A program made the position numbers and the translations under genes. From the NCBI RefSeq assembly GCF_055900595.2, contig NZ_CM148325.1: 64,000 bases of DNA. The stretch is one strand, 5' to 3'. The notes below the pieces were generated by a model. It did no database searches, was not told the origin of the DNA, and saw nothing but the letters and a program-made list of their open reading frames with translations. Below, piece by piece: positions 1 through 17,420 of the stretch (its first letter is position 1; each line of letters begins with the position of its first letter).

Positions 1-1
1 T

Positions 2-670: not shown

Positions 671-672
671 CC

Positions 673-1449: not shown

Positions 1450-1550
1450 CGGCTGACCCCGTCAGAAGGCGGCGTGCCGGGCGTTCCGGTTACGGTTTTC
1501 CGTTCCCCTTACACCCGGCACCCACCGCTTTTTTTCTGAAGGAGCGATTT

Positions 1551-2045
1551 ATGAGCATGGTCGCAAGACCGGAAGCCGCCCCTGCACGGGACGATATCCC
1601 CGACACCGACGACGGCGACGCCACCATCACCGCCGGGGCATTCTGGCCGGAGATTGTGCTGCGGGAGCTGCGCCTTGCAGTACGCCTGCCGGGCCGCATC
1701 ACCTCCACACGTCTGGCGCACGTTGCCACGGGAGCCGTGGCTCACGTCACGCGGGAGCTGGAAGAGTGGCAGAAGGCGCAGTCTGCCGCAGGGTTCAGCA
1801 TCCTCGCAGAAGTGCCTGCCGCCACCATCAACGGTGAGAGCGTCAACGTATGGCATTACCGCAACGCCGTCTACAGCGCCACCCGCGCCCTGATTCTGGA
1901 ACGCTGGCGGGATGTGGACACCACTGATAAAGGGGACCGCCGGGCTGACGCACTGGATGAGCAGATGGAAGACTTATGGCGCGATGTGCGCTGGTCCGTG
2001 GCAGATATTCTGGGTCGCCCCCGTCTTTTTGCGGAGCTGGTGTGA
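1551..2045 (+). CDS. Head completion/stabilisation protein, P2 gpL-like
   Basis: 164-aa ORF (P2 gpL about 169 aa); stop overlaps start of the next gene (ATGA at 2043-2047). Confidence 0.65.
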   Translation: MSMVARPEAAPARDDIPDTDDGDATITAGAFWPEIVLRELRLAVRLPGRITSTRLAHVATGAVAHVTRELEEWQKAQSAAGFSILAEVPAATINGESVNVWHYRNAVYSATRALILERWRDVDTTDKGDRRADALDEQMEDLWRDVRWSVADILGRPRLFAELV

Positions 2046-2242
2046 TGAAAGTGAGGGCACTCCAGGGGGATACCGTCGATTTACTCTGTTTCCGGCACTA
2101 CGGCACCACGCAGGGGGTGACCGCACAGGTACTTGATGCCAATCCAGGGCTCTGCCGCCAGGTAATTCTGGAAGCGGGACAGGAGGTGGAGATGCCGGAG
2201 CCGGAAAGGAAACAGCAACGCGAAAAGGTAAAGCTATGGTGA
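2045..2242 (+). CDS. Small tail protein, P2 gpX-like
   Basis: Internal ATG at 2045 of the 1976..2242 ORF gives a 65-aa product starting MKVRALQGDTVD, resembling P2 gpX (about 67 aa). Confidence 0.6.
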   Translation: MKVRALQGDTVDLLCFRHYGTTQGVTAQVLDANPGLCRQVILEAGQEVEMPEPERKQQREKVKLW

Positions 2243-2526
2243 CGGGATTTTTTCAGCGCGTCAGTGACTGGATCACCTTCTGGGCGTCAGTGACGGCAAC
2301 AACCATTGGTGTTATGACCATCAGCGAAAAAATTGCGCTGGCCGGGCTGCTTCTGGGGTCACTTTCCGCCATCCATGCCTGGTGCCACCGCAGGCGTACG
2401 GAGCAGGCAATGAAGCGCCGCAATGACCTTATCGCCCGCATCCTGGCACGTTCAGAAAACCGCGAGCTTCACGACGGTGAGAGACGGGCACTGGACAGCG
2501 TGAGACAGGACGGAGAAGAGCGGTGA
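2236..2526 (+). CDS. Holin (two predicted transmembrane segments, basic C-terminus)
   Basis: 96-aa ORF with hydrophobic stretches followed by a charged tail; directly upstream of the endolysin. Confidence 0.55.
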   Translation: MVTGFFQRVSDWITFWASVTATTIGVMTISEKIALAGLLLGSLSAIHAWCHRRRTEQAMKRRNDLIARILARSENRELHDGERRALDSVRQDGEER

Positions 2527-3068
2527 AACTGCCGGTAAAACGTTATGCGGTGGCGGCCATTGTGGCGCTGGGCGTCTCCATGGCACCCGGTGAACTGAGA
2601 ACCTCACGGGAAGCACAGATAAAAATCGCCACCCGGGAAGAGTGCCGGGCGACACCGTACCGTGATATTGCAGGAGTAATGACCGTGGGATGTGGTTCAA
2701 CAGGGGGCGTGGAGAACCGGGTTTACGGAGAAAAGGAGGTGGCCCGCCGCTGGGTGAATGACCTGCGGCACGCGGAAAACTGTATCAACCAGAACTTCAG
2801 CGGTGCCGCCATGCCCCAGTCCGCCTTTGAGGCGATGACCGACGCGGCGTTCAACGTCGGCTGTACCGGCCTGATGTGGTACCGGGACAGGAGCGGCAAC
2901 CGGCAGCGCACCACCATCTGGAAGCACGCACAGGCGCACCGCTGGGTGGCGATGTGCGGGAGACTGACCGATTTTGTCAACAGTGGCGGACGCCGCTCAC
3001 AGGGGCTGGTTAACCGCCGGGAGGAGTTCAGACAGTGGTGTCTTCGCGACACGGGAGGCAGCACATGA
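2523..3068 (+). CDS. SAR (signal-anchor-release) endolysin, T4-lysozyme-like (GH24)
   Basis: N-terminal weakly hydrophobic Ala/Gly/Val-rich segment (AVAAIVALGVSMAPG), then an E-x8-D-x5-T spacing (EECRATPYRDIAGVMT); resembles the phage 21 R / P1 Lyz class. Confidence 0.7.
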   Translation: MKLPVKRYAVAAIVALGVSMAPGELRTSREAQIKIATREECRATPYRDIAGVMTVGCGSTGGVENRVYGEKEVARRWVNDLRHAENCINQNFSGAAMPQSAFEAMTDAAFNVGCTGLMWYRDRSGNRQRTTIWKHAQAHRWVAMCGRLTDFVNSGGRRSQGLVNRREEFRQWCLRDTGGST

Positions 3069-3472
3069 GACCGGTTTACGCCGTGATTGTTGCCCTCATG
3101 GTGACCACCCTGACGGCGGCGGCCATGTGGCAGTCATACCGGCTGGGGCGTGCCGGTGAGGCACGTGACGCCGCAGAGCAGCAGCTGGGCGAATACAGCC
3201 GGGCGCTGCGTGAGTCCTCCGCCGTTATCAGCGATGCCTCCGCCGTACTGCATGAGGTGATGACGCAGCGACAGAAAAGGGCACAGGAAGGAGAAGTCAG
3301 ACGTGAACAGCTTCGCGAAATTGCTGCGACGGATGAGTGCGCCGGCACTCTTCCTGACCACCGTTTTACTGACCGGCTGCGCGAACACACGGAACGCGCC
3401 ACTGCCCGCGCCCTCCTTCCGGTTCATTCCGGCGGGACTGACGACGGGAACACGGCCCCCGCCCTTCCCTGA
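3065..3472 (+). CDS. i-spanin (Rz / LysB-like)
   Basis: ATG at 3065 overlaps the endolysin stop; N-terminal TM segment followed by a charged, coiled-coil-like periplasmic domain. Confidence 0.55.
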   Translation: MRPVYAVIVALMVTTLTAAAMWQSYRLGRAGEARDAAEQQLGEYSRALRESSAVISDASAVLHEVMTQRQKRAQEGEVRREQLREIAATDECAGTLPDHRFTDRLREHTERATARALLPVHSGGTDDGNTAPALP

Positions 3473-3617
3473 ACACCCCACCTGGGGAAATATCGGGATA
3501 TGGAGCGACAGCCTCCTGGATGCACTGGAAACCTGCAACGCAGACAAACGGGCCATTGAGGCGATGGAGCGCCGGAGACTCAACCGACAGAACGGAGAGG
3601 CGCATGCTGAAAAGTAA
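3303..3617 (+). CDS. o-spanin lipoprotein (Rz1 / LysC-like), overlapping the i-spanin out of frame
   Basis: Lipobox LLTGC after a signal-like segment, proline-rich mature region; starts inside the Rz-like gene in another frame and runs past its stop. Confidence 0.5.
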   Translation: MNSFAKLLRRMSAPALFLTTVLLTGCANTRNAPLPAPSFRFIPAGLTTGTRPPPFPEHPTWGNIGIWSDSLLDALETCNADKRAIEAMERRRLNRQNGEAHAEK

Positions 3618-4068
3618 ATCCCTGAGCACACACATGAGTACAGCGTGCCGGTGGTGCAGGGCCAACCCGGAAAAGTTCACCGTGTTCATTGAACGTGGCG
3701 GGATAGAGACCACCGGCGAGACGCCGACGTTCGTGTACAACTACCGGCTGGTGATGTTCGTGATGGACTACACGGGCGATCTGGACAACCTGACGCTTCC
3801 ACTGATTGTCTGGCTGGCAGAGAACCAGCCGCAGTTGCTGCTTAATCCTGAGCGCAACAACGATATTCAGTTCACGGCGGCCATTAACGACGACGACAGC
3901 GCGGACGTGCTGTTTGAGCTGCCGTTACGTGAACGCGTGCGCGTCACCCGCAGGGATGACGGCACCCTCATGACAGAACATCTACCGGAGCCGAAATCAC
4001 GCATCCCGCAGGACGGCGACTGGTCACACATTCTGGAGGATGTGACGTGGAACATTGTCACCGGATAA
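3604..4068 (+). CDS. Tail completion protein, P2 gpR-like
   Basis: ATG at 3604 gives 154 aa (P2 gpR about 155 aa); position after the lysis cassette matches P2. Confidence 0.6.
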   Translation: MLKSKSLSTHMSTACRWCRANPEKFTVFIERGGIETTGETPTFVYNYRLVMFVMDYTGDLDNLTLPLIVWLAENQPQLLLNPERNNDIQFTAAINDDDSADVLFELPLRERVRVTRRDDGTLMTEHLPEPKSRIPQDGDWSHILEDVTWNIVTG

Positions 4069-4083
4069 CACGCGGAGAATGTT

Positions 4084-4740
4084 ATGGGGAAACTGAGATA
4101 CCGTAACCTCGTTCCCGCTGAAGGAATGAGTAACATGTTTGTCAATATCCGGCTGGCAACCAGCCCGCAGGCAGTGAAGCGCATTGCCGCGCATGTGGGT
4201 AAGGAGCTGCGGCGCGTGAACCAGAGCCGGATGCGCGCCCAGAAAGCGCCGGACGGTTCGGTGTGGACACGCCGTAAACGCCGTATATCACGCCTTCAGG
4301 AGCGCATCAGCTTTATCTGGCAAAACCAGAACCGCACCCTGAAAAACTGGCATCACGGTTCAGGAAAATACGGCCAGACCATCACCGGCTGGGATGAAGA
4401 CCGGAGCGGCATACGTACCTTTTACCGGAGTGATATCCTCCGTTTCCTTGAAATCAGGACACGCCGCATCAACCGTGACACCACAAAAACGGTGCCGATG
4501 TTTGCGAAGCTGCGCACGGCCCGTTATCTGAAAGTGAAGGCGGACGCATCAGGCGTGACGGTGGGCTACAGCGGCGTGGCGGCACGCATTGCCCGCGTTC
4601 ACCAGTTCGGGGAGCGCGACCGGGTGGCCGCAGGGATGTATACGGATTATCCGGCCCGTGAACTTCTTGGAATAACACCGGCAGATGAACGACTTATTCA
4701 GCGTATCATTATGGACAATATCGCGAGGGCTGTGGCATGA
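4084..4740 (+). CDS. Tail completion / virion morphogenesis protein, P2 gpS-like (longer than P2 gpS)
   Basis: 218-aa ORF between R-like and V-like genes; start codon uncertain. Confidence 0.55.
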   Translation: MGKLRYRNLVPAEGMSNMFVNIRLATSPQAVKRIAAHVGKELRRVNQSRMRAQKAPDGSVWTRRKRRISRLQERISFIWQNQNRTLKNWHHGSGKYGQTITGWDEDRSGIRTFYRSDILRFLEIRTRRINRDTTKTVPMFAKLRTARYLKVKADASGVTVGYSGVAARIARVHQFGERDRVAAGMYTDYPARELLGITPADERLIQRIIMDNIARAVA

Positions 4741-5318
4741 ACGCGGAATTAATGCGCCTTATCAGCAACATCATCAGAACCGGCGTGATTTTCGACGTGA
4801 ACCCGCAGACCTGGGAGGTCCGGGTGCGCAGTGGCGGACTGGAGACAGGCTGGCTTCGCTGGAGCACCGCGCGGGCGGGCGCGTTCAGTGTCTGGGTGCC
4901 GCCAGCCACCGGTGAACAGGTGGCGTTCGTCTGTATCGGTGGTAATCCCGAAACCGCGATAATCATCGGCAGCCTCTGGAGCGATGATATCCCGGCACCG
5001 GGCAGCACACTGAAGGAAATCATCATGACAGCACCGGACGGTGCGGTATTCCGCTACGATGCAGACGCCGGTGCACTGGAGGTTAAGGGGATTAAAACAG
5101 CCAGCATTCAGGCCGACACGCGCATCACCCTGGACACGTCGGAGGTGGTGTGTACCCGCAAACTTATCACCGCCACCCTGGAGGTGCAGAACGGCGGCGA
5201 GATGCGCGGCAGCATATCCCACAGCGGCGGCAGCCTGACATCCAACGGTATCACCGTTCATACGCACACCCACGGTGGCGTCAGGACGGGCCCGGGCACC
5301 ACGGGAGGCCCGCAATGA
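4737..5318 (+). CDS. Baseplate assembly / spike protein, P2 gpV-like
   Basis: 193-aa ORF with Gly-rich C-terminus (HTHTHGGVRTGPGTTGGPQ); overlaps neighbours by 4 nt on each side. Confidence 0.7.
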   Translation: MNAELMRLISNIIRTGVIFDVNPQTWEVRVRSGGLETGWLRWSTARAGAFSVWVPPATGEQVAFVCIGGNPETAIIIGSLWSDDIPAPGSTLKEIIMTAPDGAVFRYDADAGALEVKGIKTASIQADTRITLDTSEVVCTRKLITATLEVQNGGEMRGSISHSGGSLTSNGITVHTHTHGGVRTGPGTTGGPQ

Positions 5319-5665
5319 CCGCTGTTTACAGGGGGATGAACCCGCAGGGAACCGGCACGCTGAGCGACAGCGAACACCTGAAAAACAGCGTGCGGGATAT
5401 CCTGACCACACCGCCAGGCAGCCGGGTGATGCGCCGCGAATACGGCAGCCTGTTACCGGACCTCATCGACGAGCCCATGAACGACACCACGCGTTTACAG
5501 TGCATGAGCGCCACGGTGACTGCGCTGGCGCGCCATGAACCCCGTATAGCACTGCAGAACGTCGATGTGAACTGGCGGGCTGGCGGACGCGCCGTGGTGA
5601 CGTTATCCGGCATCATCACCGAAACCATGCAGAACATCACATTCAGTATCACCCTGAGGGAGTAA
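5315..5665 (+). CDS. Baseplate wedge protein, P2 gpW-like (gp25-like)
   Basis: ATG at 5315 overlapping the V-like stop; 116 aa (P2 gpW 115 aa). Confidence 0.7.
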   Translation: MTAVYRGMNPQGTGTLSDSEHLKNSVRDILTTPPGSRVMRREYGSLLPDLIDEPMNDTTRLQCMSATVTALARHEPRIALQNVDVNWRAGGRAVVTLSGIITETMQNITFSITLRE

Positions 5666-5668
5666 ATC

Positions 5669-6565
5669 ATGCCTTCCGTTGACCTGTCACAGTTACCGGA
5701 ACCGGCCATCATCGCGCAGCCGGATTTTGAGTCCATCCTGGCAGACATTAAAACCATGATGGTGAGCTCCTTCCCGGAAGAATACCGCGCCGCCGTCACC
5801 CGTGCCCTTACTCTGGAATCCGAGCCATTGAACATCATTTCCCAGGCCATGGCCTTTCGTGAAATGCTGCTTCGCCAGCGCATCAATGAAGCCGCCCGCG
5901 CCTGCATGCTCAGCCTCAGCCGGGGCAGTGACCTGGACAATCTGGCCGCCAACAACAACACCCGCCGCCTGGTCATTCATCCGGCCACTGATACCACGGA
6001 AGCAGTGATGGAAAGCGACACATCGCTGCGTCTGCGTGCCCAGTCAGCCTGGGACGGCCTGAGTGTGGCCGGACCGTCCGGCGCGTATGAGTATTTTGCC
6101 CGGAGCGCAAGCGGTCTTGTCCGTGATGCGCGCGCCATCAGCCCGTCACCGGCCACAGTCACCGTCTCCATCCTGTCAGCAGACGGTGACGGCACCGCCG
6201 GTGAGGCGTTACTGAACACGGTGCGCACCGCCCTGAATGCCGAGAACGTGCGCCCGGTTGCCGACCGCCTGACTGTGCAGAGTGCTACCATCGTGAACTG
6301 GGTAATGGAAGCGAAGCTGTATTTTTATCCAGGGCCGGAGTCTGAACCCATGCTTGCGGCCGCTGACGCCGCTTTCCGTGCATGGCTGGCAGACCAGGGC
6401 CGTATCGGTCAGGACGTGGCCCTGTCAGCCATCACTGCAGCGCTGCATGTTCACGGTGTCCAGCGCGTTGAGGTCATAAAACCCACGCAGAACATCACCA
6501 TCAGTGACACTCAGGCAGCCAGATGTACCACATTCAGCATCAGCGAAGGAGGACGCAATGAGTGA
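5669..6565 (+). CDS. Baseplate assembly protein, P2 gpJ-like
   Basis: 298 aa (P2 gpJ about 302 aa), conserved position. Confidence 0.7.
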   Translation: MPSVDLSQLPEPAIIAQPDFESILADIKTMMVSSFPEEYRAAVTRALTLESEPLNIISQAMAFREMLLRQRINEAARACMLSLSRGSDLDNLAANNNTRRLVIHPATDTTEAVMESDTSLRLRAQSAWDGLSVAGPSGAYEYFARSASGLVRDARAISPSPATVTVSILSADGDGTAGEALLNTVRTALNAENVRPVADRLTVQSATIVNWVMEAKLYFYPGPESEPMLAAADAAFRAWLADQGRIGQDVALSAITAALHVHGVQRVEVIKPTQNITISDTQAARCTTFSISEGGRNE

Positions 6566-7121
6566 CAGGAAAAAAACAGACAGCGCACAGCACAGTACAT
6601 CACTGCTTCCACCGTCCGCAGGGCCATTCATGCGCGCCACAGAGGCGACAGGAGTACGCATCAGTACCATACCGGTGGACGCCGACACCCTGTGGTCGCC
6701 GGACCGCTGCCCTGCTCACCTCCTGCCCTACCTTGCATGGGCATGTTCCGTTGACTGCTGGGACCGCAACTGGCCGGAAGAGACCAGGCGACAGGTGATT
6801 CGGGACGCATGGATGATACATCGCCACAAAGGGACCATCAGTGCACTCCGCCGCATCGTTGAACCACTGGGCTACCTCATCCGTGTATCAGAATGGTGGG
6901 AGTTTGACGGCTCGCCCGGGACCTTCACCATTGAGATTGGCACACTTGAAACCGGAGTAAGTGAAGAGCTGCATGAAGAAATGGAGCGTCTGATTGCCGA
7001 TGCGCGCCCCGTCAGCCGCCACCTCGTGGGGCTTAGTATCATCCAGGAAATACACGGTGCCATTTACGACGCTGCCGCAGGTTACGACGGCGACATCATC
7101 ACCATTTACCCGGAAGACTGA
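6558..7121 (+). CDS. Baseplate/tail protein, P2 gpI-like
   Basis: ATG at 6558 overlaps the J-like stop by 8 nt; 187 aa. Confidence 0.65.
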   Translation: MSDRKKTDSAQHSTSLLPPSAGPFMRATEATGVRISTIPVDADTLWSPDRCPAHLLPYLAWACSVDCWDRNWPEETRRQVIRDAWMIHRHKGTISALRRIVEPLGYLIRVSEWWEFDGSPGTFTIEIGTLETGVSEELHEEMERLIADARPVSRHLVGLSIIQEIHGAIYDAAAGYDGDIITIYPED

Positions 7122-7124
7122 ACC

Positions 7125-9359
7125 ATGAGCACGAGAAAATTCAGAACCCTTATCACCGACATCGGGCTGGCAAAGCTGGCCGCAACAACGGCGCCTGGCG
7201 GTAGACCTGTACGCCTTACGCACATGGCTGTAGGGGACGGCAATGGAGAGCTTCGTCAGCCGCAGAAAAACCAGACATCGCTTTACAATGAGGTTTGGCG
7301 CCAGTCTGTCAACCGCGTCTTCACCGACCCGGAGAACCCGAACCGCCTCATCGCCGAACTGGTCATTCCTCCTGAAACCGGCGGATTCTGGGTGCGTGAA
7401 ATTGGTGTGTTTGATGATACAGGTACAATGATTGCAGTAGGAAATACCGCTGAAAGTTACAAGCCCACCAGAGAGGAAGGTTCAGGGCGGGCGCAGATAT
7501 TCCGTGCAGTAATCACCGTCACCTCCGACGCCGTGGTGGAACTGGTCATGGACACAACAACAATTCTGCCGACCACGGACTACATTGATGAGAAAATGGC
7601 GGAACACGCACGTTCCCGTAACCACCCTGACGCGACACTGACAGAAAAAGGATTCACCCAACTGAGCAGCGCCACAAACAGCACCTCTGAAACACTGGCC
7701 GCCACACCGAAGGCCGTCAAGGCTGCATATGACCTTGCAGCCGGTAAAGCACCCGCCAGCCACACCCACCCGTGGAATCAGATAACTGGTGTGCCATCAG
7801 CCTCGCTGACGGCAAAAGGCACCGTACAGCTGAGCAGTGCCACAAACAGTGAGTCAGAGACTGAGGCGGCCACCCCCAAAGCGGTTAAAGCCTTACACGA
7901 TATGGTGACGAGCAAGTATACAGGACAGGATGCAACCACCGGACGCAAAGGCATCGTACAGCTGAGCAGCGCCACAAACAGCAATTCCGAAACACTGGCG
8001 GCCACACCGAAGGCAGTAAGTGATGCACTGAGCATGGCGTTCGTGAAGCCAACAACATCCCTGGGGGAAACAGACCTGAACACTCTGGGGCGTAAGGAAG
8101 ACGCGGGAGATTATTACCAGCAGAGTGACTCAGGTGCGAGAACAGACAGAAACTATCCTGTAGAGAAGGCAGGAGAGTTACGCATCCGTGTTGGTGCATG
8201 GGGATTCTGCCAGCATGAATACACGAGCTGGGATCCGCCACGAAAATTTATCAGGACAGTTACCGGAAACTTTAACGGTAACGGCCCATGGTCAGAGTGG
8301 GTGGAGGTGACAAACACAGATGCAACAACTGGACGCAAAGGCATCGTACAGCTGAGCAGCGATACAAACAGCAATTCCGAAACGCTGGCGGCCACACCAA
8401 GAGCCGTCAAGGCTGCATATGACCTTGCAGCCGGTAAAGCACCCGCCAGCCACACCCACCCGTGGAATCAGATAACAGGTGTGCCATCAGCCTCGCTGAC
8501 GGCAAAAGGCACCGTACAGCTGAGCAGTGCCACAAACAGTGAGTCAGAGACTGAGGCCGCCACCCCCAAAGCGGTTAAAGCCTTACACGATATGCTGACG
8601 AGCAAGTATACAGGACAGGATGCAACCACCGGACGCAAAGGCATCGTACAGCTAAGCAGCGCCACAAACAGCAATTCCGAAACGCTGGCGGCCACACCAA
8701 AAGCTGTTAAAGCTGCGTATGACCTTGCCAACAGCAAAGCCTCGGCAGCCCACACTCATCGCTGGGCTCAGATCACAGACGCCCCTGTTTTTTCGTCTGT
8801 TGCCCGCGTCATCATGGGTAAACAAAGCATAAAAGATATTCTTGATTACTTTGGTTTAGGAGAAGGCTCGACGCTGCCAGTTGGCGTACCCGTTCCGTGG
8901 CCTTCGTCAAGACCACCTGAGGGGTGGTTACAGTGCAACGGTGCCGCATTCACGCGTACAAAATACCCAAAACTGGCGGTGGCCTACCCTGACCTCAGGC
9001 TACCAGATTTGCGCGGGGAATTTATTCGTGGATGGGATGACCTGCGAATGATTGACAGGGGACGCTTATTGTTATCCACACAGGAAGCAACATATATTTG
9101 TACCGCCATACAGGCGTACCACGGCGTAGCGGGAGGTGCAGATATTCAGGCAGGGATTTCATTTGCATCACATGATAACGACATCATAAACATAACCCCT
9201 GATCAACCCAGAACCGGTAACGGCATCCTGTACGGCACAAAACCAGTTGACAGATGGGCAATAGCCAGAGCCGGTAAGCTGGTGAGTAATGAAAAAGACA
9301 GATGGATAGCGATCAGACCGCGCAATATCGCTTTTAATTATATTGTGAGGGCAGTTTAA
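7125..9359 (+). CDS. Tail fibre protein, P2 gpH-like, with internal repeat modules and a collar-like C-terminal domain
   Basis: 744 aa; conserved gpH-type N-terminus (MSTRKFRTLITDIGLAKLAATTAPGG...); repeated GIVQLSSATNS...ATPKAVKA motifs; C-terminus ends NIAFNYIVRAV. Confidence 0.75.
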   Translation: MSTRKFRTLITDIGLAKLAATTAPGGRPVRLTHMAVGDGNGELRQPQKNQTSLYNEVWRQSVNRVFTDPENPNRLIAELVIPPETGGFWVREIGVFDDTGTMIAVGNTAESYKPTREEGSGRAQIFRAVITVTSDAVVELVMDTTTILPTTDYIDEKMAEHARSRNHPDATLTEKGFTQLSSATNSTSETLAATPKAVKAAYDLAAGKAPASHTHPWNQITGVPSASLTAKGTVQLSSATNSESETEAATPKAVKALHDMVTSKYTGQDATTGRKGIVQLSSATNSNSETLAATPKAVSDALSMAFVKPTTSLGETDLNTLGRKEDAGDYYQQSDSGARTDRNYPVEKAGELRIRVGAWGFCQHEYTSWDPPRKFIRTVTGNFNGNGPWSEWVEVTNTDATTGRKGIVQLSSDTNSNSETLAATPRAVKAAYDLAAGKAPASHTHPWNQITGVPSASLTAKGTVQLSSATNSESETEAATPKAVKALHDMLTSKYTGQDATTGRKGIVQLSSATNSNSETLAATPKAVKAAYDLANSKASAAHTHRWAQITDAPVFSSVARVIMGKQSIKDILDYFGLGEGSTLPVGVPVPWPSSRPPEGWLQCNGAAFTRTKYPKLAVAYPDLRLPDLRGEFIRGWDDLRMIDRGRLLLSTQEATYICTAIQAYHGVAGGADIQAGISFASHDNDIINITPDQPRTGNGILYGTKPVDRWAIARAGKLVSNEKDRWIAIRPRNIAFNYIVRAV
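7705..8010. repeat. Direct repeat copy A inside the tail fibre gene (about 300 bp, near-identical to 8395-8700)
   Basis: Read by eye: the stretch gccgtcaaggctgcatatgaccttgcagccggtaaagcacccgccagccacacccacccgtggaatcagataac... recurs almost exactly. Confidence 0.6.
8395..8700. repeat. Direct repeat copy B inside the tail fibre gene
   Basis: Near-identical to 7705-8010; shorter partial copies of the GIVQLSSATNS module occur at about 7925 and 8630. Confidence 0.6.
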
Positions 9360-9970
9360 TGAGTAACACTGCAGTTCTGGATGAAAACGGTATCGCCACT
9401 TTCGCAGGCGATATCACTGTATATCACTATGATGAGGAAACCCGGGAATACACCTCATCCTCTGTGGAGTATCTCGCCCTGGGGGTGGGTACCCCGGCAC
9501 ATTCATGCGCCGATGCCCCGCCAGAGGCAATGCCGGGTTACGTGATTTGCCGGACGTCCACGCTGGACGGGTGGGAGTATGTCCCCGATCATCGTGGAGA
9601 GACGGTATACAGCACAGAGAACGGTAATCCGGTCCAGATTACCCAACCAGGTGACTACCCGGAAGGGACAACGACAAAACAGCCTGCCACACCATGGGAT
9701 ACCTGGAACGGTGAGGCGTGGGTAACCGATACAGAACGGCAGCAAGCCGAAGAGCTGGAGGTTGCCAGACAGCAACGCAAGGAACGGGTGGATCAGGCGA
9801 TGAAGTCCATCGACCTCATCAACCTTAAGTTGCGGGCAGGTCGCAGTCTGACACCAGAAGAAACGGCAAAACTGAATGCCGTGCTGGATTATATCGACGA
9901 GCTGAACGCACTGGATATCAGCACGGAGCCTGAAATAAGCTGGCCGGAAACACCACCAGAAATGGAATGA
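9359..9970 (+). CDS. Tail fibre assembly chaperone (gpG / Tfa-like)
   Basis: 203-aa ORF starting at the tail fibre stop (TAATG overlap); typical Tfa N-terminus MSNTAVLDENGIATFAGDITVYHYDEETREY. Confidence 0.7.
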   Translation: MSNTAVLDENGIATFAGDITVYHYDEETREYTSSSVEYLALGVGTPAHSCADAPPEAMPGYVICRTSTLDGWEYVPDHRGETVYSTENGNPVQITQPGDYPEGTTTKQPATPWDTWNGEAWVTDTERQQAEELEVARQQRKERVDQAMKSIDLINLKLRAGRSLTPEETAKLNAVLDYIDELNALDISTEPEISWPETPPEME

Positions 9971-10040
9971 GCGGGGAAAAGGAACGGGCATTCATAAATA
10001 ATTCATCATGCAGGTGCCGCAAGAATGCGGCACATTACCT

Positions 10041-10529
10041 TCACATCAGATCATTTACGCCGCTTACTGTGGTATTCCAGACCGAACTTAACTTCCCTTT
10101 CATTCCCGAAAGCATATCAGACACCGGCGACGAGGCCATACTCTCCCGCAAATCCTCATCACAGCGTTCCAGACTGACAGTGAACTCAATTTTTTTGGCC
10201 TTACCGTGGCGGTCAAGTTCGCTTCGCGTTGTGCGGACAGCCGTTATCACATACATGCCGTATATCTGCCCCACACCGTCAATCAGCGGCCATGGGCGAC
10301 CAGTGTAAGCCTGCGTCGTTAAAAGGCTGAGGGAAACCTCACCGCCGGTAATTTCGGGATAAAGCACACCGGACAACGTGATCTGGTCGTCACCCGCCCC
10401 GATATACTGCCAGCTGGCCGAACGATTGATGCGTTCATTTTTAACGTGGCGCCAGGTTTTATTATGTTGCAGTTGTTGATGAGGCAGCGTACGCAACTCA
10501 AAAACAAACATGCCGTAAATCATCATCAT
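10041..10529 (-). CDS. Tail protein, P2 gpU-like
   Basis: 162 aa, N-terminus MMMIYGMFVFELRTLPHQQLQHNKTWRH closely resembles P2 gpU (159 aa); on the opposite strand to H/G. Confidence 0.7.
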   Translation of the reverse strand: MMMIYGMFVFELRTLPHQQLQHNKTWRHVKNERINRSASWQYIGAGDDQITLSGVLYPEITGGEVSLSLLTTQAYTGRPWPLIDGVGQIYGMYVITAVRTTRSELDRHGKAKKIEFTVSLERCDEDLRESMASSPVSDMLSGMKGKLSSVWNTTVSGVNDLM

Positions 10530-10540
10530 GCGAGGTACTC

Positions 10541-13500
10541 CTAATCTCTGTCACGGAAACTACCGACTGTCTGGCGGATACGGCGTTCCATTTCCGCACG
10601 GACGGCATCACCCACCATTTTTGCCAGTTCGCGCGGGTTTTGCGTGTGAACATCATGCAGGTGAATATGCAGTTCGCCAGTTAATCCCCATGGTGCCGGC
10701 TCACTCTGGCGCGGTCGGGGCGATGCGGGGGATATGGGCTGGCGCACAGCCTCAACCACCGGACGGGATGTTGCCGCCATCACTGGTGTCATTAGCGGGG
10801 AGAACGTCGGCATGACATCGTGAGTCATAACCGGTTTGATCACCGGCGGAACCACTGGCGTAATATTACCGGACAGTACCGGACGGACGACCGGAGGAAT
10901 AACCGGCACATTATTCACGGACACCACCGGCTTCACGACCGGCGACACGTTCGCCGTGGTGGATATCAGCGGCGAAACACTGACAGGCGGTGGCGCTGGC
11001 AGCGGTGGCAACGAAGGCACACTGACCGACGGCACCTGCGGCAGTCTGACAGGTGGCTCACTGACACTACCCGGTAACAGGGAAGCTGCTCGGTTAAAGC
11101 GTTCCTCCTTCCACTCACCACGAACGGCCAGCGCTTCCGGCAGGTTTTTAAAGATAATATCGCCGGGACCAGCGCGTTTTTTCGCCTGTTTCGCCTCATC
11201 CAGCAGACCACCGGTGTTATCGACGATTTTGTTCAGGCGGCGCATAGTGCCGGTATTCTCCCCCGTCAGGGGTGGTTGCCCCCCTTTGGGTTTTTCGCCG
11301 TCTTTTTTATCCTCGTCCTTTTTCGGCGGATTAATGACGTTAACATCCGCCAGAAGCATGGCAGCTTTCTCGTTCAGCAACTCCTTCTGTTTTAGTTCTT
11401 CCGCCTTTTTCCGGGCGCGCTCAACCGCCGACGGAATCAGCCCGAGTTTTTCCAGCACCCGGGTTAATGAGTCAATCAGCAGCGTAACCGGACCGGTCAC
11501 CAGATTGCTGATAAACTCCCCGACCTTCTGCCCGAACGTACGCCCGGCTTCCGTGCACTTGTCCAGCTCATCCTTTGTTGTGCTTACCGGCGCGAACAAA
11601 TCCACGAACCACTGCCACACACGCCCGATTGTCTGCCCGACATACTCAAACAGCGGTCCCAGTGGTGCCACAGCCTCGCGCAGTGGCGTAAGCCCCTGCC
11701 ACAGGCCGGACAAGAACCCGCCCACGACAGCCTTCAGCTGGTCCCAGTGCCGCCAGATAAGCACTGCCGCACCGACCAGTGTCGCCACCACAAGGCCCAC
11801 CGGACTTAACAGAAAACCCAGCGCCCCGCCAAGTGCGCCCACCGCACCACTCACCATCCCCCACAGTGCGGGCAGACCTGACAGTCTGAGCGCCAGTATT
11901 CCGATACCGCGCCCCAGTGAAATCAGTGCGCCGCCAGGTGAAGTGAACGCAGCCAGCAGACCACCACGCAGCGCGCCAAGTCCCGCCTGCACACCACGAA
12001 GCCGCCCCGCAACTACGCCCAGCAGTGCAGCAAACCGTCCGGCACCGGAGGTGATACCGACAAACAGCACGCGCCAGCCACCGATACCGCCCAGCGGACC
12101 ACCGAGTACGCCGCGCAGCTGCGTCAGTAACGGCAGCGCACGACCGAGGCCGGATGTGCCGGTCAGCAGGGCAAACCCAAGACGCAGTTTTGCCAGCGGC
12201 CCCATCAACACACCAGTGGCAAGTGACAGCGCCCCCATGGCCGCAACCGCAGCCAGCAGTACACCACCGGCAATCAGCAGTTGTTTTGTCAGTTCAGGGT
12301 GCGCCTGAGCCAGCGCGGTGACTTTCGCAATAACCCGGGTGAACGACTGCGTGACAGAACGCAGCGGCCCGTCAACGAGGTCAGCGACACGGATACGCAG
12401 TCCTTCCCATGCGCTGTTCAGTGATTTCAGGTCACCGTCCAGGTTATCAGCCATAACACGGGCAGTGTGATTAAGTTCCCCGGTGGCCAGTTCAATCTCC
12501 TGCGTAAGACGGGGAAGATTATTTTCCCCCGCCGCAGTGACAAGATTCATCAGGGAAACATAGGACTCCTGCCCGGCAATAGCCCTGAAAAAGGAGACCT
12601 GCGCGGCATTACCGTATTTTCGGGTGGCCTGGTACAGCTCATTCAGGATATTTTCCATCCGGCGCATGTTCCCGTAAGCATCCTGCGTCTCCACGCCAAG
12701 CTCTTTCAGTGCCATTGCAGCGGCCTTCGGCGGATCAACCAGACGTGACAGACTGGCACGCAGCGCCGTACCTGCATCACTTCCACGGATCCCCACACTG
12801 CCAAGGACACCCGTCATGGCTGCCGCCTGTTCAAGGGACAGGCCAAGTGAAGCTGCAACCGGACCCGTGTACTTCATGGTTTCACCCAGCGAACGGAGAT
12901 CCGTATTGGTTCGTGTGAAGGTGGCGGCCAGCGTGTCACCCACGCGATCCATCTGGTCAGCGGACAGACCAAACTGTGTGAGGATATTCGAACTGATATC
13001 GGCAGTCTGTCCCAGGTCCATCCCTGCAGCCATTGCCAGATCAAGCACGCCGGGTAGCGCCGCCTGTATGGCCTGTGGTGTGAAGCCGGCCATGGCAAGG
13101 AACGCCTGACCGCTGGCAGCATCACCGGCGGTAAACTGCGTTTCAGAGCCCAGCTTAATGGCCTGTTCGCGCAGCGCCTTAAACTGCGGACTGTTTTTGT
13201 CAATACGGGTCAGCGCCTGGACGCGCGACATCTCCTTACCAAAACTGACCGCCGGTTGCAGGAAACGTCCGGCCGCATAGCCGCCTGCCGCCGCCGTACC
13301 AACCGCCGTAAGTCCGACCGTTTTAAGTTTTCCCGCCGTCTCCTGAGCACGGGAATATTGCTGGCGTGCCTGCGTGACACGTGCCAGCGCCTGCCGTTCG
13401 CGTTCCAGCTGGTCGTTGTATTGCTGTGTTCGCCGTATGGCCTGTTGAATGGTGTTGTCACTGCCGGAAAGCGCAATACCGTGGCGCCGCAGCTCACCAC

Positions 13501-13888
13501 CCAGTTCGCGCATTCGCTGAACTTCACGCGCACGGACCTCATTGAGACGCTCAAGTTTGAGGCTCAAATCGTTCATCAGCTTTTTCTGTTTGTCAGACAG
13601 CACGGTTCCGGCGCGCTGAATTTGCTGAAGTGCGCTTAACTGGCGTTGCGCCCTGACAATGCCGTTTCCGGCCTTGTTTGCAGCCTCGCGGGCGCGATCA
13701 AATGAACGGGCGTGGCGTTCCAGGTTTTTGATCGCACCCTGCGTTCTCTGTATGGAGTCGCCAAGCTGGCCCATCATGCGACGGGCGTTTTCGGTGGGAC
13801 GGGTCAGCCTGTCAACAGCGCTGAAGGCGACCCGTATATCAAGCGTTTTCATGCTCTGCGTTCCCGCTGCGAAGGGCCGCCCGCTCAC
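10541..13888 (-). CDS. Tail tape measure protein, P2 gpT-like
   Basis: 1115-aa ORF; coiled-coil N-terminal region, Gly/Ala-rich hydrophobic centre, Pro/Val-rich C-terminal part; track start is GTG at 13888, an in-frame ATG also lies at 13852. Confidence 0.8.
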   Translation of the reverse strand: MSGRPFAAGTQSMKTLDIRVAFSAVDRLTRPTENARRMMGQLGDSIQRTQGAIKNLERHARSFDRAREAANKAGNGIVRAQRQLSALQQIQRAGTVLSDKQKKLMNDLSLKLERLNEVRAREVQRMRELGGELRRHGIALSGSDNTIQQAIRRTQQYNDQLERERQALARVTQARQQYSRAQETAGKLKTVGLTAVGTAAAGGYAAGRFLQPAVSFGKEMSRVQALTRIDKNSPQFKALREQAIKLGSETQFTAGDAASGQAFLAMAGFTPQAIQAALPGVLDLAMAAGMDLGQTADISSNILTQFGLSADQMDRVGDTLAATFTRTNTDLRSLGETMKYTGPVAASLGLSLEQAAAMTGVLGSVGIRGSDAGTALRASLSRLVDPPKAAAMALKELGVETQDAYGNMRRMENILNELYQATRKYGNAAQVSFFRAIAGQESYVSLMNLVTAAGENNLPRLTQEIELATGELNHTARVMADNLDGDLKSLNSAWEGLRIRVADLVDGPLRSVTQSFTRVIAKVTALAQAHPELTKQLLIAGGVLLAAVAAMGALSLATGVLMGPLAKLRLGFALLTGTSGLGRALPLLTQLRGVLGGPLGGIGGWRVLFVGITSGAGRFAALLGVVAGRLRGVQAGLGALRGGLLAAFTSPGGALISLGRGIGILALRLSGLPALWGMVSGAVGALGGALGFLLSPVGLVVATLVGAAVLIWRHWDQLKAVVGGFLSGLWQGLTPLREAVAPLGPLFEYVGQTIGRVWQWFVDLFAPVSTTKDELDKCTEAGRTFGQKVGEFISNLVTGPVTLLIDSLTRVLEKLGLIPSAVERARKKAEELKQKELLNEKAAMLLADVNVINPPKKDEDKKDGEKPKGGQPPLTGENTGTMRRLNKIVDNTGGLLDEAKQAKKRAGPGDIIFKNLPEALAVRGEWKEERFNRAASLLPGSVSEPPVRLPQVPSVSVPSLPPLPAPPPVSVSPLISTTANVSPVVKPVVSVNNVPVIPPVVRPVLSGNITPVVPPVIKPVMTHDVMPTFSPLMTPVMAATSRPVVEAVRQPISPASPRPRQSEPAPWGLTGELHIHLHDVHTQNPRELAKMVGDAVRAEMERRIRQTVGSFRDRD

Positions 13889-14365
13889 GCCAGGCGACCA
13901 CCTCGCCGGGATCCATCAGGAAGATTTCAGCGGGAGACCAGTTGAAAATAACGGCGATATCCGCCACAAAGTCTTCAATGTGCTCAAAGGGCACGACGGT
14001 TATCAGCCTGCCGTCGCCGCCCCACTCTTCCCGCCAGAGTCCTGACCGGCCAAAAAATTAACCGCCACCCCGCACAGCTGAATAAAATCAGCGGACCCCA
14101 TGCGCTTAAGCAGAACCTCGTCCAGTCGCGGCGAAGTGACGCGCGGGAGTAACTCAAACATCGCGTCCGTTTTCATGTTCAGCACGTCAAGCAGTGACAG
14201 CCCGCGCAGTGAACCGGCCTGCTGTACAGCAGGCGTGATTTCCACATACGTGATTTTTTTGTTACCGAGCACAAGGGGCGTTTTCAGCGTCACGCCGCGC
14301 TCACTGGTCACGTCCGCCGCATCAGCACCGTCAGTAACAGGGGCAACAACCGGATTTTCTTTCAT
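13839..14365 (-). CDS. Putative E+E' fusion made by programmed -1 ribosomal frameshift
   Basis: TTTTTTG on the coding strand at 14051-14057; the -1 frame stays open for about 70 codons and stops at TGA 13839-13841, just inside the tape measure 5' end. Confidence 0.45.
14003..14365 (-). CDS. Tail assembly chaperone, P2 gpE-like (zero-frame product)
   Basis: 120-aa ORF between the tube gene and tape measure gene; contains the slippery heptamer near its 3' end. Confidence 0.6.
   Translation of the reverse strand: MKENPVVAPVTDGADAADVTSERGVTLKTPLVLGNKKITYVEITPAVQQAGSLRGLSLLDVLNMKTDAMFELLPRVTSPRLDEVLLKRMGSADFIQLCGVAVNFLAGQDSGGKSGAATAG
14051..14057 (-). other. Slippery heptamer T_TTT_TTG (candidate -1 frameshift site)
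   Basis: Plus strand reads caaaaaa at 14051-14057; reverse complement is TTTTTTG in the E reading frame (AVNFLAGQ). Confidence 0.45.
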
Positions 14366-14415
14366 GCATAAAACCTCAAATCAGGGGGCGACGCCGCGCG
14401 CCGCCGTGGGAAACA

Positions 14416-14934
14416 TTAACCACCAAGACCAATCGCCGAGCGCACGCGGTCCGGGAAGACGTTTTTGCCGTCCTTGCGTTCGATGTGGTTCAGTAAATCA
14501 ATCTCCAGCACCGGACGGTCGTTAATGCTGAGTTTGTAGTAGGTACTCCTGACCGCATAGGTGTGAGACGTGACCTCACCCTGTTTTGCCTCCCCCGTAT
14601 CAATTTCCGTCACGCGGCCGCGAAGCTCAATTTCATACAGGTCGCTCTGCTCTTCATCGTTGTAGTACTCACCGACAAAGCGCAGCAGCGTACCGTCGAT
14701 CGTGCCGCCGTACTTAAGGAACAGTTCGCGGGTCGGCCCGCCCATGGTGAAACTCGCATCCAGCGCGCCGTCATCCAGACCAAGGTCGATATTCACCGCG
14801 CCGGCCATACCACCACCGCGATAGGCTTCCGTTTTACGGGTCAGTTTGGGGGGGGTGAAGCCGGTCACCCTGCCAATCTGGTTCACCCCGTCAGTAAACA
14901 GCGTGAACACCCTGAGATTTTTTGGTACGGCCAT
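14416..14934 (-). CDS. Tail tube protein, P2 gpFII-like
   Basis: 172 aa, same length as P2 FII; directly downstream of the sheath gene. Confidence 0.75.
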   Translation of the reverse strand: MAVPKNLRVFTLFTDGVNQIGRVTGFTPPKLTRKTEAYRGGGMAGAVNIDLGLDDGALDASFTMGGPTRELFLKYGGTIDGTLLRFVGEYYNDEEQSDLYEIELRGRVTEIDTGEAKQGEVTSHTYAVRSTYYKLSINDRPVLEIDLLNHIERKDGKNVFPDRVRSAIGLGG

Positions 14935-16124
14935 TAAGCACCTCCAAGCGTCGCAAATGCAGGACCAAAGAATTCATCAGTAAACGTCTGGTAAAGTTCC
15001 ATATCCTCAAGCGGCGGAACGGGCGTGTACTTGTAGCGGATACGCACGCGTCCCTGACGAAGTTCCGTGGTGCTGTTATCCACCACGTCATACCAGCACT
15101 CCGCACCAATGAGACGTCCTGACGTAACCAGCGCATCCAGTTTTGCGCGAATTGCGCTTAACACGTCTTTCACATTAGCAGGGGTCAGCGGGGCATCAAT
15201 CGTTTCAAACTGCGCTTCCGCAATGGAATCAGCCAGCACCTGAGCGGTTCGCGTGTACACCTCAAAGAGATACGCCTTCGTTTCCGGCGTACGGTTGCCC
15301 CAGAAGCGGAAACCGTTACGGCAAATGATGGTAGTGATTTCCTTGTTGTTGAGATTGTTGGCATCGCTGTCTTCGGACTGAAGGGACCAGAACACCGGGC
15401 TGGAAATACCCAGCACATTTCTTACCGGCACGTTGGACAGCGATTTATGCCAGCCCTGTTCGTGGTCAATACGTGCACGTAAACCGCAGGCGTACGCCGC
15501 AGCCGGGAAGACCTCATTAGCGCCGGATTTCGGGTTATGGGCGATGAAGTCCGGCCAGACCAGCATAAGTTCGCGCTCGTTAAATCTGGCGCGGTAGCTG
15601 ATTGCATCGGCGGGCTTCTTGCAGTTGTGACAGCCCGCGTAGACAAATGCGCGAAGTTTTTCTGCAATTACACACAGGGATTTTGTGACAGCTTCAGTAT
15701 CCAGTCCGGGAGCTGCGATGATGCGCGGACGGTAACCGATGGCATCATCCTGTTCAGCTATCAGAAGTGCATACATGCCGGTATAGTTTCCGTCATCATC
15801 AGAACCACCGATAACGAGTTTGTCCTGGGTTTGTCCTGAATGCGTCTCTTCCTTAAATTCAGGAACGCGCACCACAATCACCTTCGTGCTCACCTGGTCG
15901 GCGACAGCCTTAAGCGATTTGTAAAGCGTCCCCTTTGTGCCGGCCTTACCCAGCACATCACTGACGCGGGTCAGCAGTGTGGGTTTGTTCAGCGGGAACA
16001 GAGTTTCATCCGCGTCATCTGCCGTAGCCACAATACCAATAACACTGGAATCCACATCATTAATGGCGGTGGCAAGGCCGGTACTTTCCCTTACGCGCGC
16101 ACCATGAAAGCGTGTTTCACTCAT
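14934..16124 (-). CDS. Contractile tail sheath protein, P2 gpFI-like
   Basis: Internal ATG at 16124 (MSETRFHGARV...) gives 396 aa, same length as P2 FI; conserved motifs such as RNGFRFWGNRT. Confidence 0.8.
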   Translation of the reverse strand: MSETRFHGARVRESTGLATAINDVDSSVIGIVATADDADETLFPLNKPTLLTRVSDVLGKAGTKGTLYKSLKAVADQVSTKVIVVRVPEFKEETHSGQTQDKLVIGGSDDDGNYTGMYALLIAEQDDAIGYRPRIIAAPGLDTEAVTKSLCVIAEKLRAFVYAGCHNCKKPADAISYRARFNERELMLVWPDFIAHNPKSGANEVFPAAAYACGLRARIDHEQGWHKSLSNVPVRNVLGISSPVFWSLQSEDSDANNLNNKEITTIICRNGFRFWGNRTPETKAYLFEVYTRTAQVLADSIAEAQFETIDAPLTPANVKDVLSAIRAKLDALVTSGRLIGAECWYDVVDNSTTELRQGRVRIRYKYTPVPPLEDMELYQTFTDEFFGPAFATLGGA

Positions 16125-16200
16125 ATGTTTCACCCTTGTCTGGCTGGTTGATTTTGCGTAATCATTACCCACACACGCGGTAATCTCACCCCTTTGATGT

Positions 16201-16218
16201 TGTCTCCTGACAGCGACA
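16201..16218. promoter_or_regulatory. TGT-N12-ACA dyad, candidate Ogr/Delta-type late activator site between divergent FI and D
   Basis: tgtctcctgacagcgaca lies inside a longer palindrome (ttgttgtc...gacaacaa); about 77 bp from the FI start and about 68 bp from the D start. Confidence 0.4.
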
Positions 16219-16285
16219 ACAAAACAGCCATTCAACGCCGCTGCGGTGCATGAAACCATTACAGAACGCACCAGGAGAGAACACC

Positions 16286-17377: not shown

Positions 17378-17420
17378 AATTAAAATGAGCCATCTCCACT
17401 CAGCCAGATAAGGAGAAGCC

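What the first reader, a model, noticed from the sequence alone, without database searches (positions are those of the whole stretch)
7650..8760. Near-identical 300-bp direct repeats inside the tail fibre gene
Two almost identical segments (7705-8010 and 8395-8700), plus shorter partial copies, encode the repeated GIVQLSSATNS...ATPKAVKA...HTHPWNQITGVP modules of the fibre shaft. Such repeats can recombine and change fibre length. They also generate the spurious minus-strand ORFs in the track across 7482-8755, which share the peptide AALTAFGVAASVSE because they are antisense to the repeat.
Basis: seen in the sequence. Interest (0 to 1): 0.4.

Follow-up and report, generated by a model that had tools for sequence, protein, structure and literature searches.

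The report
Shuffled repeat modules in tail fibre
The near-identical 300-bp repeats are real: they are copies of the shaft modules of an E. coli prophage tail fibre gene, they flank a small "knob" domain, and related prophages carry different numbers and orders of these modules, which is an ordinary, well-known way for phage fibres to vary.

Summary
Confirmed and ordinary. Window 7125-9359 (+) encodes a 744-aa P2 gpH-type tail fibre. It belongs to a P88/Xuanwuvirus-like prophage inserted next to serS in E. coli.

Two segments 690 bp apart (7647-8019 and 8337-8709) are direct repeats. Their cores (7713-8008 and 8403-8698, 296 bp) differ at 5 sites, four of them synonymous.

Each copy encodes part of a 56-aa 'a' module, a full 44-aa 'b' module and the next repeat core. 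The a modules carry an HxH motif, and all six cores match Pfam PF03406. The protein reads N-a-b-K-a-b-w-C.

It is an R-pyocin-type knob domain, shown by a profile match to PDB 6CL6/6CL5 (E 8e-12) and a confident model with the same top fold hits.

Alleles about 99% identical outside the repeats show at least 8 well-supported module orders, 626 to 868 aa. Two lack the knob, and one carries a crossover footprint for knob loss or gain. Identical cassettes lie on opposite sides of the knob in different alleles.

The exact 514-aa product of recombination between the two copies occurs only in short-read contigs. Three of the nine have mosaic SNP patterns, so repeat collapse is likely.

No invertase, inverted repeats or DGR features are present. 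The antisense ORFs are spurious.

The parts
7125..9359 (+). Tail fibre gene, 744 aa, P2 gpH type. Module order is N-a-b-K-a-b-w-C.
   Evidence: ORF. Pfam PF12571 1e-50, PF03406 six times 1e-104, PF07484 3e-13. Identical in 22 complete E. coli genomes, where it is annotated 'tail fiber protein'.
7134..7577 (+). N-terminal baseplate-attachment domain (aa 4-151)
   Evidence: PF12571 match. Differs by 0-4 nt among the alleles compared.
7647..8019 (+). Direct repeat copy 1. The near-identical core is 7713-8008. It covers the 3' part of module a1, module b2 and the core of module K.
8337..8709 (+). Direct repeat copy 2, 690 bp downstream. The core is 8403-8698. It covers module a4, module b5 and the core of module w.
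7650..7817 (+). Module a1 (aa 176-231): PF03406 core plus a linker with the HxH motif HTH at 7761-7769
   Evidence: The metal-site role of HxH is inferred from PMC6116203.
7818..7949 (+). Module b2 (aa 232-275): PF03406 core plus the KYTGQDATTGRK linker
7950..8339 (+). Module K (aa 276-405): PF03406 core followed by the knob domain (about aa 314-397, nt 8064-8315). About 90 bp of direct repeat at 87% identity flanks it (7929-8019 and 8319-8409).
   Evidence: Profile match to R2/R1 pyocin fibre Knob2 in PDB 6CL6, 6CT8 and 6CL5, E 8e-12 to 2e-8. AF2 model with pLDDT 87.7. The top Foldseek hits are the same entries. Offset-390 identity.
8340..8507 (+). Module a4 (aa 406-461), with HTH at 8451-8459. 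It is identical over 168 nt to the pre-knob module a2 of alleles L002, L003 and L005.
8508..8639 (+). Module b5 (aa 462-505). It differs by 1 nt from the pre-knob b module of L002, L003 and L005.
8640..9356 (+). Module w plus the C-terminal tip (aa 506-744). It holds the last PF03406 core, HTH at 8751-8759 and the collar domain at 8883-9026.
   Evidence: PF07484. PDB sequence matches to T4 gp37 tip 2XGF (E 3.5e-12) and Mu gpS 5YVQ (E 1.5e-7).
9359..9970 (+). Tail fibre assembly chaperone (gpG/Tfa type)
   Evidence: PF02413 4.5e-27
7482..8755 (-). Set of spurious antisense ORFs: 7482-7769, 7580-7765, 7778-8083, 7885-8241, 8153-8455 and 8468-8755
   Evidence: No CDS is annotated here in RefSeq.

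Best explanation
The repeats are translated building blocks of the shaft of a trimeric P2 gpH-type tail fibre. Each block is a PF03406 'phage tail fibre repeat' core followed by one of two linkers. The 56-aa 'a' module has a linker with an HxH motif, and the 44-aa 'b' module has a KYTGQDATTGRK linker. One core leads into an R-pyocin-type knob domain. All module lengths (168, 132 and 390 bp) are multiples of three, and the cores share 30-80-bp stretches of perfect identity. Out-of-register homologous recombination therefore adds, removes or moves modules in frame. It can occur within one gene, between sister chromosomes, or between co-resident prophage copies. The 98% identity of the two 296-bp copies, synonymous sites included, marks a recent event of this kind or gene conversion. 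The a-b cassette that follows the knob here lies before the knob in sister alleles. The outcome is a population of fibres that share the baseplate-attachment domain, the receptor-binding tip and the chaperone. They differ in shaft length and in whether a knob is present. What is shown: the anatomy, the domain identities, the polymorphism and one crossover footprint. What is inferred: the recombination pathway (RecA or a phage recombinase), iron binding at the HxH sites, any sugar binding by the knob, and any effect on adsorption or host range.
For: Repeat anatomy is. Eight module orders occur on complete genomes or Mb-scale contigs: a-b-K-a-b-w 744 aa; a-b-K-a-a-w and a-a-b-K-a-w 756; a-a-b-K-a-b-w 800; a-a-b-K-a-a-w 812; a-a-b-K-a-a-a-w 868; and the knob-less a-b-a-a-w 626 and a-b-a-b-a-w 670. 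Further orders are seen only on short contigs. Compared with the window allele, the sister alleles differ by 1-4 of 525 nt in the N-terminal part, 1 of 390 in module K, 8-11 of 720 in the C-terminal part, and 2-6 nt in each flanking gene. Structural change therefore outpaces point substitution. Window a4 equals a2 of L002, L003 and L005 at 0 of 168 differences, and window b5 differs from their b3 by 1 of 132. Module 3 of the knob-less allele L001 is a chimera. Its nt 1-59 match the K core and its nt 25-120 match the first post-knob a module, so the crossover lies in a 35-bp shared stretch (nt 25-59). Some genomes carry two or three copies of this prophage family with different fibre alleles: 744 and 868 aa in TUM9803, 744 and 670 aa in LH50-c. 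Published precedents exist. PF03406-plus-collar fibres occur in E. coli prophages (PMC4134206). Repeat-length variation occurs in prophage fibres (PMC3368898). Motif-mediated recombination and duplications occur in T4 fibres (Tetart 1996 and 1998, cited in PMC3157838). HxH iron sites and knob domains occur in R-pyocin fibres (PMC6116203).
Against: No rearrangement was observed directly in this strain. The 744-aa allele is stable enough to be identical in 22 complete genomes and on 444 contigs. The predicted 690-bp deletion product appears only in short-read assemblies, and 3 of the 9 contigs have mosaic SNP patterns. That points to assembly collapse rather than biology. No allele with two knobs was found. 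The sequencing technology behind the 'complete' genomes was not checked. No functional consequence of shaft length or of the knob has been tested.
Confidence: 0.85

Rival explanations
1. The two copies are old paralogous modules kept alike by ongoing gene conversion (concerted evolution), not by a recent duplication or unequal crossover.
For: Module sequence types are shared among positions and alleles with 0-4 nt differences. The mosaic patterns in some contigs could in principle be short conversion tracts.
Against: Conversion alone does not change module number or order, yet alleles differ mainly in both. The mosaic contigs are all short-read assemblies. This rival uses the same recombination machinery and is a variant of the main explanation rather than an alternative to it.
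Confidence: 0.1
2. The repeat is an assembly artefact, meaning a falsely duplicated segment in this window.
For: Repeats of this size do confuse short-read assemblers. Collapsed 514-aa versions exist in short-read contigs.
Against: The identical 2235-bp gene is present in 22 complete genomes from several countries, and the 744-aa protein is on 444 contigs. The copies differ at 5 core sites and in their 5' flanks. The reading frame is intact. Artefacts usually collapse repeats rather than expand them.
Confidence: 0.01
3. The repeats belong to a programmed diversification system: a diversity-generating retroelement, an invertase-driven switch (Gin/Cin/Min type) or a shufflon.
For: Related P88/Xuanwuvirus phages carry a DNA invertase and alternative fibre tips just downstream of the fibre gene. 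E. coli prophage fibres of this architecture do switch by inversion (PMC4134206).
Against: No inverted repeats occur in 6500-10000. No invertase gene is present, and only 70 bp separate the chaperone (end 9970) from gpU (start 10041). No reverse transcriptase lies nearby. The differences between copies are not adenine-specific: G/A, A/G, T/A and G/C. The variable part is the shaft, not the receptor-binding tip.
Confidence: 0.02
4. The gene is a fusion of two fibres. The first would end in a knob-type receptor-binding domain, joined to a second shaft and tip.
For: The architecture looks like shaft-globular domain-shaft-globular domain. The second half repeats the first almost exactly.
Against: In 217 instances from 150 cluster representatives the knob domain is never terminal. 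It is always at least 19 aa from the C-terminus (median 251 aa) and is often present in 2-4 copies per protein. R-pyocin fibres also carry internal knobs. Knob-less alleles retain the same N- and C-termini.
Confidence: 0.02

Closest known systems
P2 gpH / Mu gpS / lambda Stf-type tail fibres with PF03406 repeats and a tail-collar tip
   Same: It has the PF12571 N-terminus, PF03406 repeats and PF07484 collar. A Caudo_TAP chaperone lies downstream and baseplate J and I genes lie upstream. Sequence matches reach Mu gpS (5YVQ) and the T4 gp37 tip (2XGF). The same architecture is described for E. coli prophages in PMC4134206.
   Different: An R-pyocin-type knob sits in the middle of the repeat array. 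The closest isolated phages are only about 78% identical, and only over the sheath and tube genes.
R1/R2 pyocin receptor-binding fibre (PA0620; PDB 6CL5, 6CL6, 6CT8)
   Same: The knob profile matches Knob2 at E 8e-12, and the model's best fold hits are these entries. HxH motifs like the iron site of the pyocin shaft are present. Both are P2-type contractile-tail fibres.
   Different: There is one knob rather than two in tandem. The tip is a collar-type domain rather than a lectin-like foot. The shaft is built of PF03406 modules. Sequence identity in the knob is only about 20%.
T4 gp37 duplications and motif-mediated recombination (Tetart et al. 1996, 1998)
   Same: Conserved fibrous motifs serve as recombination sites, and duplications of small fibre segments occur (cited in PMC3157838).
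   Different: In T4 the events alter the adhesin and host range. Here the receptor-binding tip is constant and only the shaft and knob vary. No phenotype is known.
Invertase-driven fibre switching in P88/Xuanwuvirus, Mu, P1 and e14
   Same: The prophage backbone and gene order match, with the FI-to-U block on the opposite strand followed by D and ogr. The fibre gene class is the same.
   Different: This lineage has no invertase and no alternative tips. Variation arises through direct-repeat homologous recombination, not site-specific inversion.
Tail-fibre length haplotypes of Pseudomonas tailocins (bioRxiv 10.1101/2023.04.17.536465)
   Same: Discrete fibre-length classes coexist in one bacterial population.
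   Different: In that study length class correlates with killing spectrum. No such data exist here, and the molecular basis of the length classes was not compared.

Membership tests
P2 gpH-type tail fibre | N-terminal tail-collar fibre domain (PF12571) | tested here: met
   aa 4-151, E 6e-50
P2 gpH-type tail fibre | Phage tail fibre repeats (PF03406) in the shaft | tested here: met
   Six matches, E 1e-104
P2 gpH-type tail fibre | Gene context of baseplate J and I upstream and a Tfa chaperone downstream | tested here: met
   PF04865, PF09684 and PF02413. P2-type capsid, terminase, lysis, R, S, V, U, T and D genes are also present.
P2 gpH-type tail fibre | Homotrimer incorporated into virions and binding a host receptor | not testable with these tools
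   Needs purified particles or a structure.
R-pyocin-type knob domain | Sequence-profile similarity to Knob1/Knob2 of PA0620 | tested here: met
   A 45-sequence profile matches 6CL6 (E 7.8e-12), 6CT8 (4.3e-11) and 6CL5 (2.5e-8).
R-pyocin-type knob domain | Antiparallel five- or six-strand beta-sheet fold that superposes on the solved knobs | tested here: inconclusive
   The monomer model (pLDDT 87.7, five strands) has 6ct8, 6cl6 and 6cl5 among its top hits at probability 1.00. However, TM is only 0.50-0.60, rmsd 3.1-4.5 A and E about 1e-2.
R-pyocin-type knob domain | Trimeric beta-prism assembly with saccharide binding | not testable with these tools
   The tool predicts monomers only, and no ligand data exist.
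Diversity-generating retroelement target | Nearby reverse transcriptase, and a template/variable repeat pair differing at adenines | tested here: not met
   No reverse transcriptase was found among the neighbouring genes. The mismatches are G/A, A/G, T/A and G/C.
Invertase (Gin/Cin/Min) fibre switch | Invertase gene and inverted crossover sites flanking alternative fibre tips | tested here: not met
   No inverted repeats in 6500-10000. There is a 70-bp gap where P88 relatives carry the invertase cassette.

The most novel reading that the evidence does not exclude
The repeat-flanked knob and the a-b cassettes may act as a contingency locus. In that reading, homologous recombination between the 30-80-bp identical stretches would generate subpopulations of lysogens or virions with shorter, longer or knob-less fibres, at a frequency high enough to matter for adsorption through different O-antigen or capsule layers. 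This would replace the invertase-driven tip switching that this lineage has lost relative to its P88-like relatives.
Probability: 0.12. Interest if true: 0.5.

Novelty: new member of a known kind. Interest (0 to 1): 0.25.

Why it matters
The main value is practical and descriptive. The repeat is an assembly hazard: nine short-read contigs carry a probably collapsed 514-aa version of the gene. This should be remembered when fibre lengths are compared across draft genomes or metagenomes. The lineage also offers a clean natural series of fibres with the same attachment domain, tip and chaperone but different shaft lengths, with or without a knob. That series could be used to test how shaft length and knob domains affect adsorption in P2-type phages or engineered tailocins. 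The knob domain family is widespread (260 cluster representatives at E up to 0.001) yet has no Pfam or NCBIfam model.

Tried and rejected
- Tandem Repeats Finder gave no rows. The 690-bp period exceeds its limit and the copies are interspersed.
- Pfam and NCBIfam gave no hit for the knob segment or for any of 45 family members. PHROGs gave only weak internal matches to fibre families.
- I first suspected that the knob was the terminal receptor-binding domain of a fused fibre. I rejected this because the domain is always internal in 217 instances.
- I built the four proteins expected from recombination between the two copies. Both 514-aa deletion forms exist exactly in public data, but only in MEGAHIT, metaSPAdes or draft contigs. 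Their flanks are identical to the window allele, the switch points vary, and three have mosaic SNP patterns. I therefore do not count them as evidence of real deletions. The two 974-aa double-knob forms are absent.
- DGR and invertase models were rejected, as set out in the membership tests.
- A megablast of the whole prophage part against the phage collection found no close isolate. The best hit was 78% identity over 10% of the query.
- The second structure job was not used. A monomer prediction of a trimeric shaft would not be informative.
Full report
**Observation**

The region lies inside one long ORF, 7125-9359 on the + strand, encoding 744 aa. A repeat search reports a 300-nt pair, 7647-7946 and 8337-8636, at 94% identity. 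It also reports a four-copy 160-nt family starting at 7629, 7929, 8319 and 8619.

Ungapped comparison at an offset of 690 bp shows similarity from about 7647 to 8019. The core (7713-8008 and 8403-8698) differs at 5 of 296. Four of those five differences are synonymous third-position changes and one is Val/Leu.

Perfect-identity runs of 80, 74, 58 and 36 bp separate the mismatches. Weaker diagonals at offsets 300, 390 and 990 reflect the other repeat cores. Tandem Repeats Finder is silent because the period exceeds its limit.

**What the gene is**

Pfam gives the following matches:
- an N-terminal tail-collar fibre domain (PF12571, aa 4-151);
- six phage tail fibre repeats (PF03406);
- a tail collar domain (PF07484, aa 587-634).

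The neighbours are baseplate J and tail protein I upstream and a Caudo_TAP fibre-assembly chaperone downstream. The rest of the left part of the window encodes P2-type capsid, small terminase, head completion, lysozyme, R, S, V, U, tape measure and D proteins.

The C-terminal part matches the T4 gp37 tip (2XGF). The last repeat matches Mu gpS (5YVQ).

The host is E. coli. The identical gene occurs in 22 of 5426 complete genomes, and the 744-aa protein is on 444 contigs. The prophage lies between dmsA and serS.

Its gene order has the FI-to-U tail block on the opposite strand, followed by D and ogr. This is the order of P88/Xuanwuvirus phages. No isolated phage is close at the DNA level.

**Anatomy of the repeats**

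Splitting the protein at each repeat core gives the order a(56 aa)-b(44)-K(130)-a(56)-b(44)-w.
- 'a' is a core plus a linker carrying HTHPW.
- 'b' is a core plus KYTGQDATTGRK.
- 'K' is a core followed by a globular segment.
- 'w' is the last core running into the C-terminal tip.

The 690-bp repeat unit therefore comprises most of an a module, a whole b module and the next core.

HxH motifs lie at aa 213-215, 443-445 and 543-545. In R-pyocin fibres, T4 gp37 and P2 gpV, such motifs from three chains form buried octahedral iron sites (PMC6116203). The same role here is an inference.

**The segment between the copies**

The roughly 100 aa between the copies has no Pfam or NCBIfam match.

A search of 1.84 billion cluster representatives found 260 relatives at E up to 0.001. 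In 217 instances the domain is always internal, and many proteins carry two to four copies.

A 45-sequence profile matches the R2 and R1 pyocin fibres 6CL6, 6CT8 and 6CL5 at E 8e-12 to 2e-8, over their Knob2 domain. An AlphaFold model built from that alignment has mean pLDDT 87.7 and five strands. Its best Foldseek hits are the same pyocin entries, at probability 1.00 and TM 0.50-0.60.

The segment is therefore an R-pyocin-type knob. Buth et al. propose that knobs aid trimer folding and may bind saccharides. Neither role is tested here. About 90 bp of direct repeat (7929-8019 and 8319-8409) flanks the knob.

**Do the repeats recombine?**

Alleles of the same prophage lineage were taken from complete genomes and from the protein collection. 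They show these module orders:

| Length (aa) | Module order |
|---|---|
| 744 | a-b-K-a-b-w |
| 756 | a-b-K-a-a-w and a-a-b-K-a-w |
| 800 | a-a-b-K-a-b-w |
| 812 | a-a-b-K-a-a-w |
| 868 | a-a-b-K-a-a-a-w |
| 626 | a-b-a-a-w (knob-less) |
| 670 | a-b-a-b-a-w (knob-less) |

All eight orders are on complete genomes or Mb-scale contigs. Several further orders appear only on short contigs.

Outside the repeats the sister alleles are almost the same as the window allele. They differ by 1-4 of 525 nt in the N-terminal part, 1 of 390 in module K, 8-11 of 720 in the C-terminal part, and 2-6 nt in each flanking gene. Structural change is therefore fast relative to point substitution.

Cassettes also move. 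The post-knob a module of the window is identical (0 of 168) to the pre-knob second a module of L002, L003 and L005. The window's post-knob b differs from their pre-knob b by one base.

Module 3 of the knob-less allele L001 is a chimera. Its first 59 nt match the K core and its nt 25-120 match the first post-knob a module. This is the footprint of a crossover in a 35-bp shared stretch (nt 25-59) that removes or adds the 390-bp knob module.

Some genomes hold two or three copies of this prophage family with different alleles. TUM9803 has 744 and 868 aa, and LH50-c has 744 and 670 aa. Recombination partners are therefore available in the same cell.

**A test that turned into a caution**

I built the proteins expected from recombination between the two 690-bp-spaced copies. 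Both 514-aa deletion forms exist residue for residue in public data. The 974-aa duplication forms do not.

All nine contigs carrying the 514-aa forms are short-read metagenome or draft assemblies. Their flanks are identical to the window allele. The switch from copy-1 to copy-2 SNPs falls in different intervals. Three contigs alternate between the two copies.

This is what repeat collapse by an assembler would produce. I therefore do not count these contigs as real deletions. Only the raw reads can settle the question.

**Rivals**

- An assembly artefact in the window is excluded by the 22 identical complete genomes.
- Programmed systems are excluded. There are no inverted repeats, no invertase, only 70 bp where P88 relatives carry their invertase cassette, no reverse transcriptase, and no adenine-specific differences.
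- A two-fibre fusion is unlikely because the knob is never terminal.
- Gene conversion may contribute to the identity of the copies. It cannot by itself explain the changes in module number and order.

**Antisense ORFs**

The minus-strand ORFs have no Pfam hit above the curated cut-off, and RefSeq does not annotate them. Their shared peptide maps exactly antisense to the SETLAATPKAVKAA core at 7685-7726, 8375-8416 and 8675-8716.

**Comparison with what is known**

Fibres built of PF03406 repeats with a collar tip are described in E. coli prophages (PMC4134206). Length variation in multiples of the repeat unit is described for prophage fibre proteins (PMC3368898). Recombination at conserved fibre motifs and host-range-changing duplications are classic T4 results (Tetart 1996 and 1998, cited in PMC3157838). 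Fibre-length haplotypes occur in Pseudomonas tailocins.

This locus is a new, well-documented example of that kind. Its particular feature is a pyocin-type knob embedded in the repeat array that is itself gained or lost by the same mechanism.

**Verdict**

The finding is a new member of a known kind and of low to moderate interest (0.25). The most novel reading not excluded is an actively variable 'contingency' fibre that replaces invertase switching. I give it a probability of about 0.12.

Noticed in passing
window 17700-21400: An ORF-poor stretch of about 3.6 kb lies between the prophage ogr gene and serS. It holds at least nine copies of a terminator-like element, TTTGCCCGCCGGAAAGCGGGCATTTTTTT, spaced about 200, 460 or 970 nt apart and set inside larger diverged direct repeats. 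No Rfam family reaches its gathering score. Two sub-threshold sok matches (18562-18721 and 20567-20724, 46 and 43 bits against a cut-off of 59) lie next to a hok-like ORF at 18708-18848. A weak AgvB/RyhB-like hit lies at 19597-19651. This looks like an array of small terminator-ended transcription units.
   Followed up: partly
L010-L018 (public short-read contigs): Nine contigs carry a 514-aa version of this fibre that equals the window allele minus the 690-bp unit. The switch points vary, and three contigs have mosaic SNP patterns. These are probably repeat-collapse misassemblies, so the repeat is an assembly hazard for draft genomes and metagenomes.
   Followed up: yes
window 9970-17400; L009: The tail genes U, T, E, FII and FI are on the opposite strand to V-W-J-I-H-G and to D-ogr, unlike in P2. 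The same order is found in P88/Xuanwuvirus phages. Those phages also carry a DNA invertase and alternative fibre tips between the chaperone and gpU. This lineage has only 70 bp there.
   Followed up: partly
L004 (E. coli LH10-b-1) compared with window 1-17700: In some strains the serS-dmsA site holds a decayed copy of the prophage. That copy has no capsid, terminase or lysis genes and a frameshifted tape measure gene. The window copy has these genes and an intact 1115-aa tape measure.
   Followed up: no
window 7125-9359 (database names): Several NCBI and UniRef entries name this exact tail fibre protein 'short-chain fatty acid transporter'. This is an evident misannotation that has propagated.
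   Followed up: no
window 10541-13888 (-) and 10836-12308 (+): The tape measure protein ends in a Pro/Val-rich periodic region (for example PVVKPVVSVNNVPVIPPVVRPV). A 490-aa ORF lies antisense within the gene and is most likely spurious.
   Followed up: no
window 8064-8315 and proteins P0121-P0270: The knob domain family is widespread, with 260 cluster representatives at E up to 0.001. It is often present in 2-4 copies per fibre, yet no Pfam or NCBIfam model covers it.
   Followed up: partly
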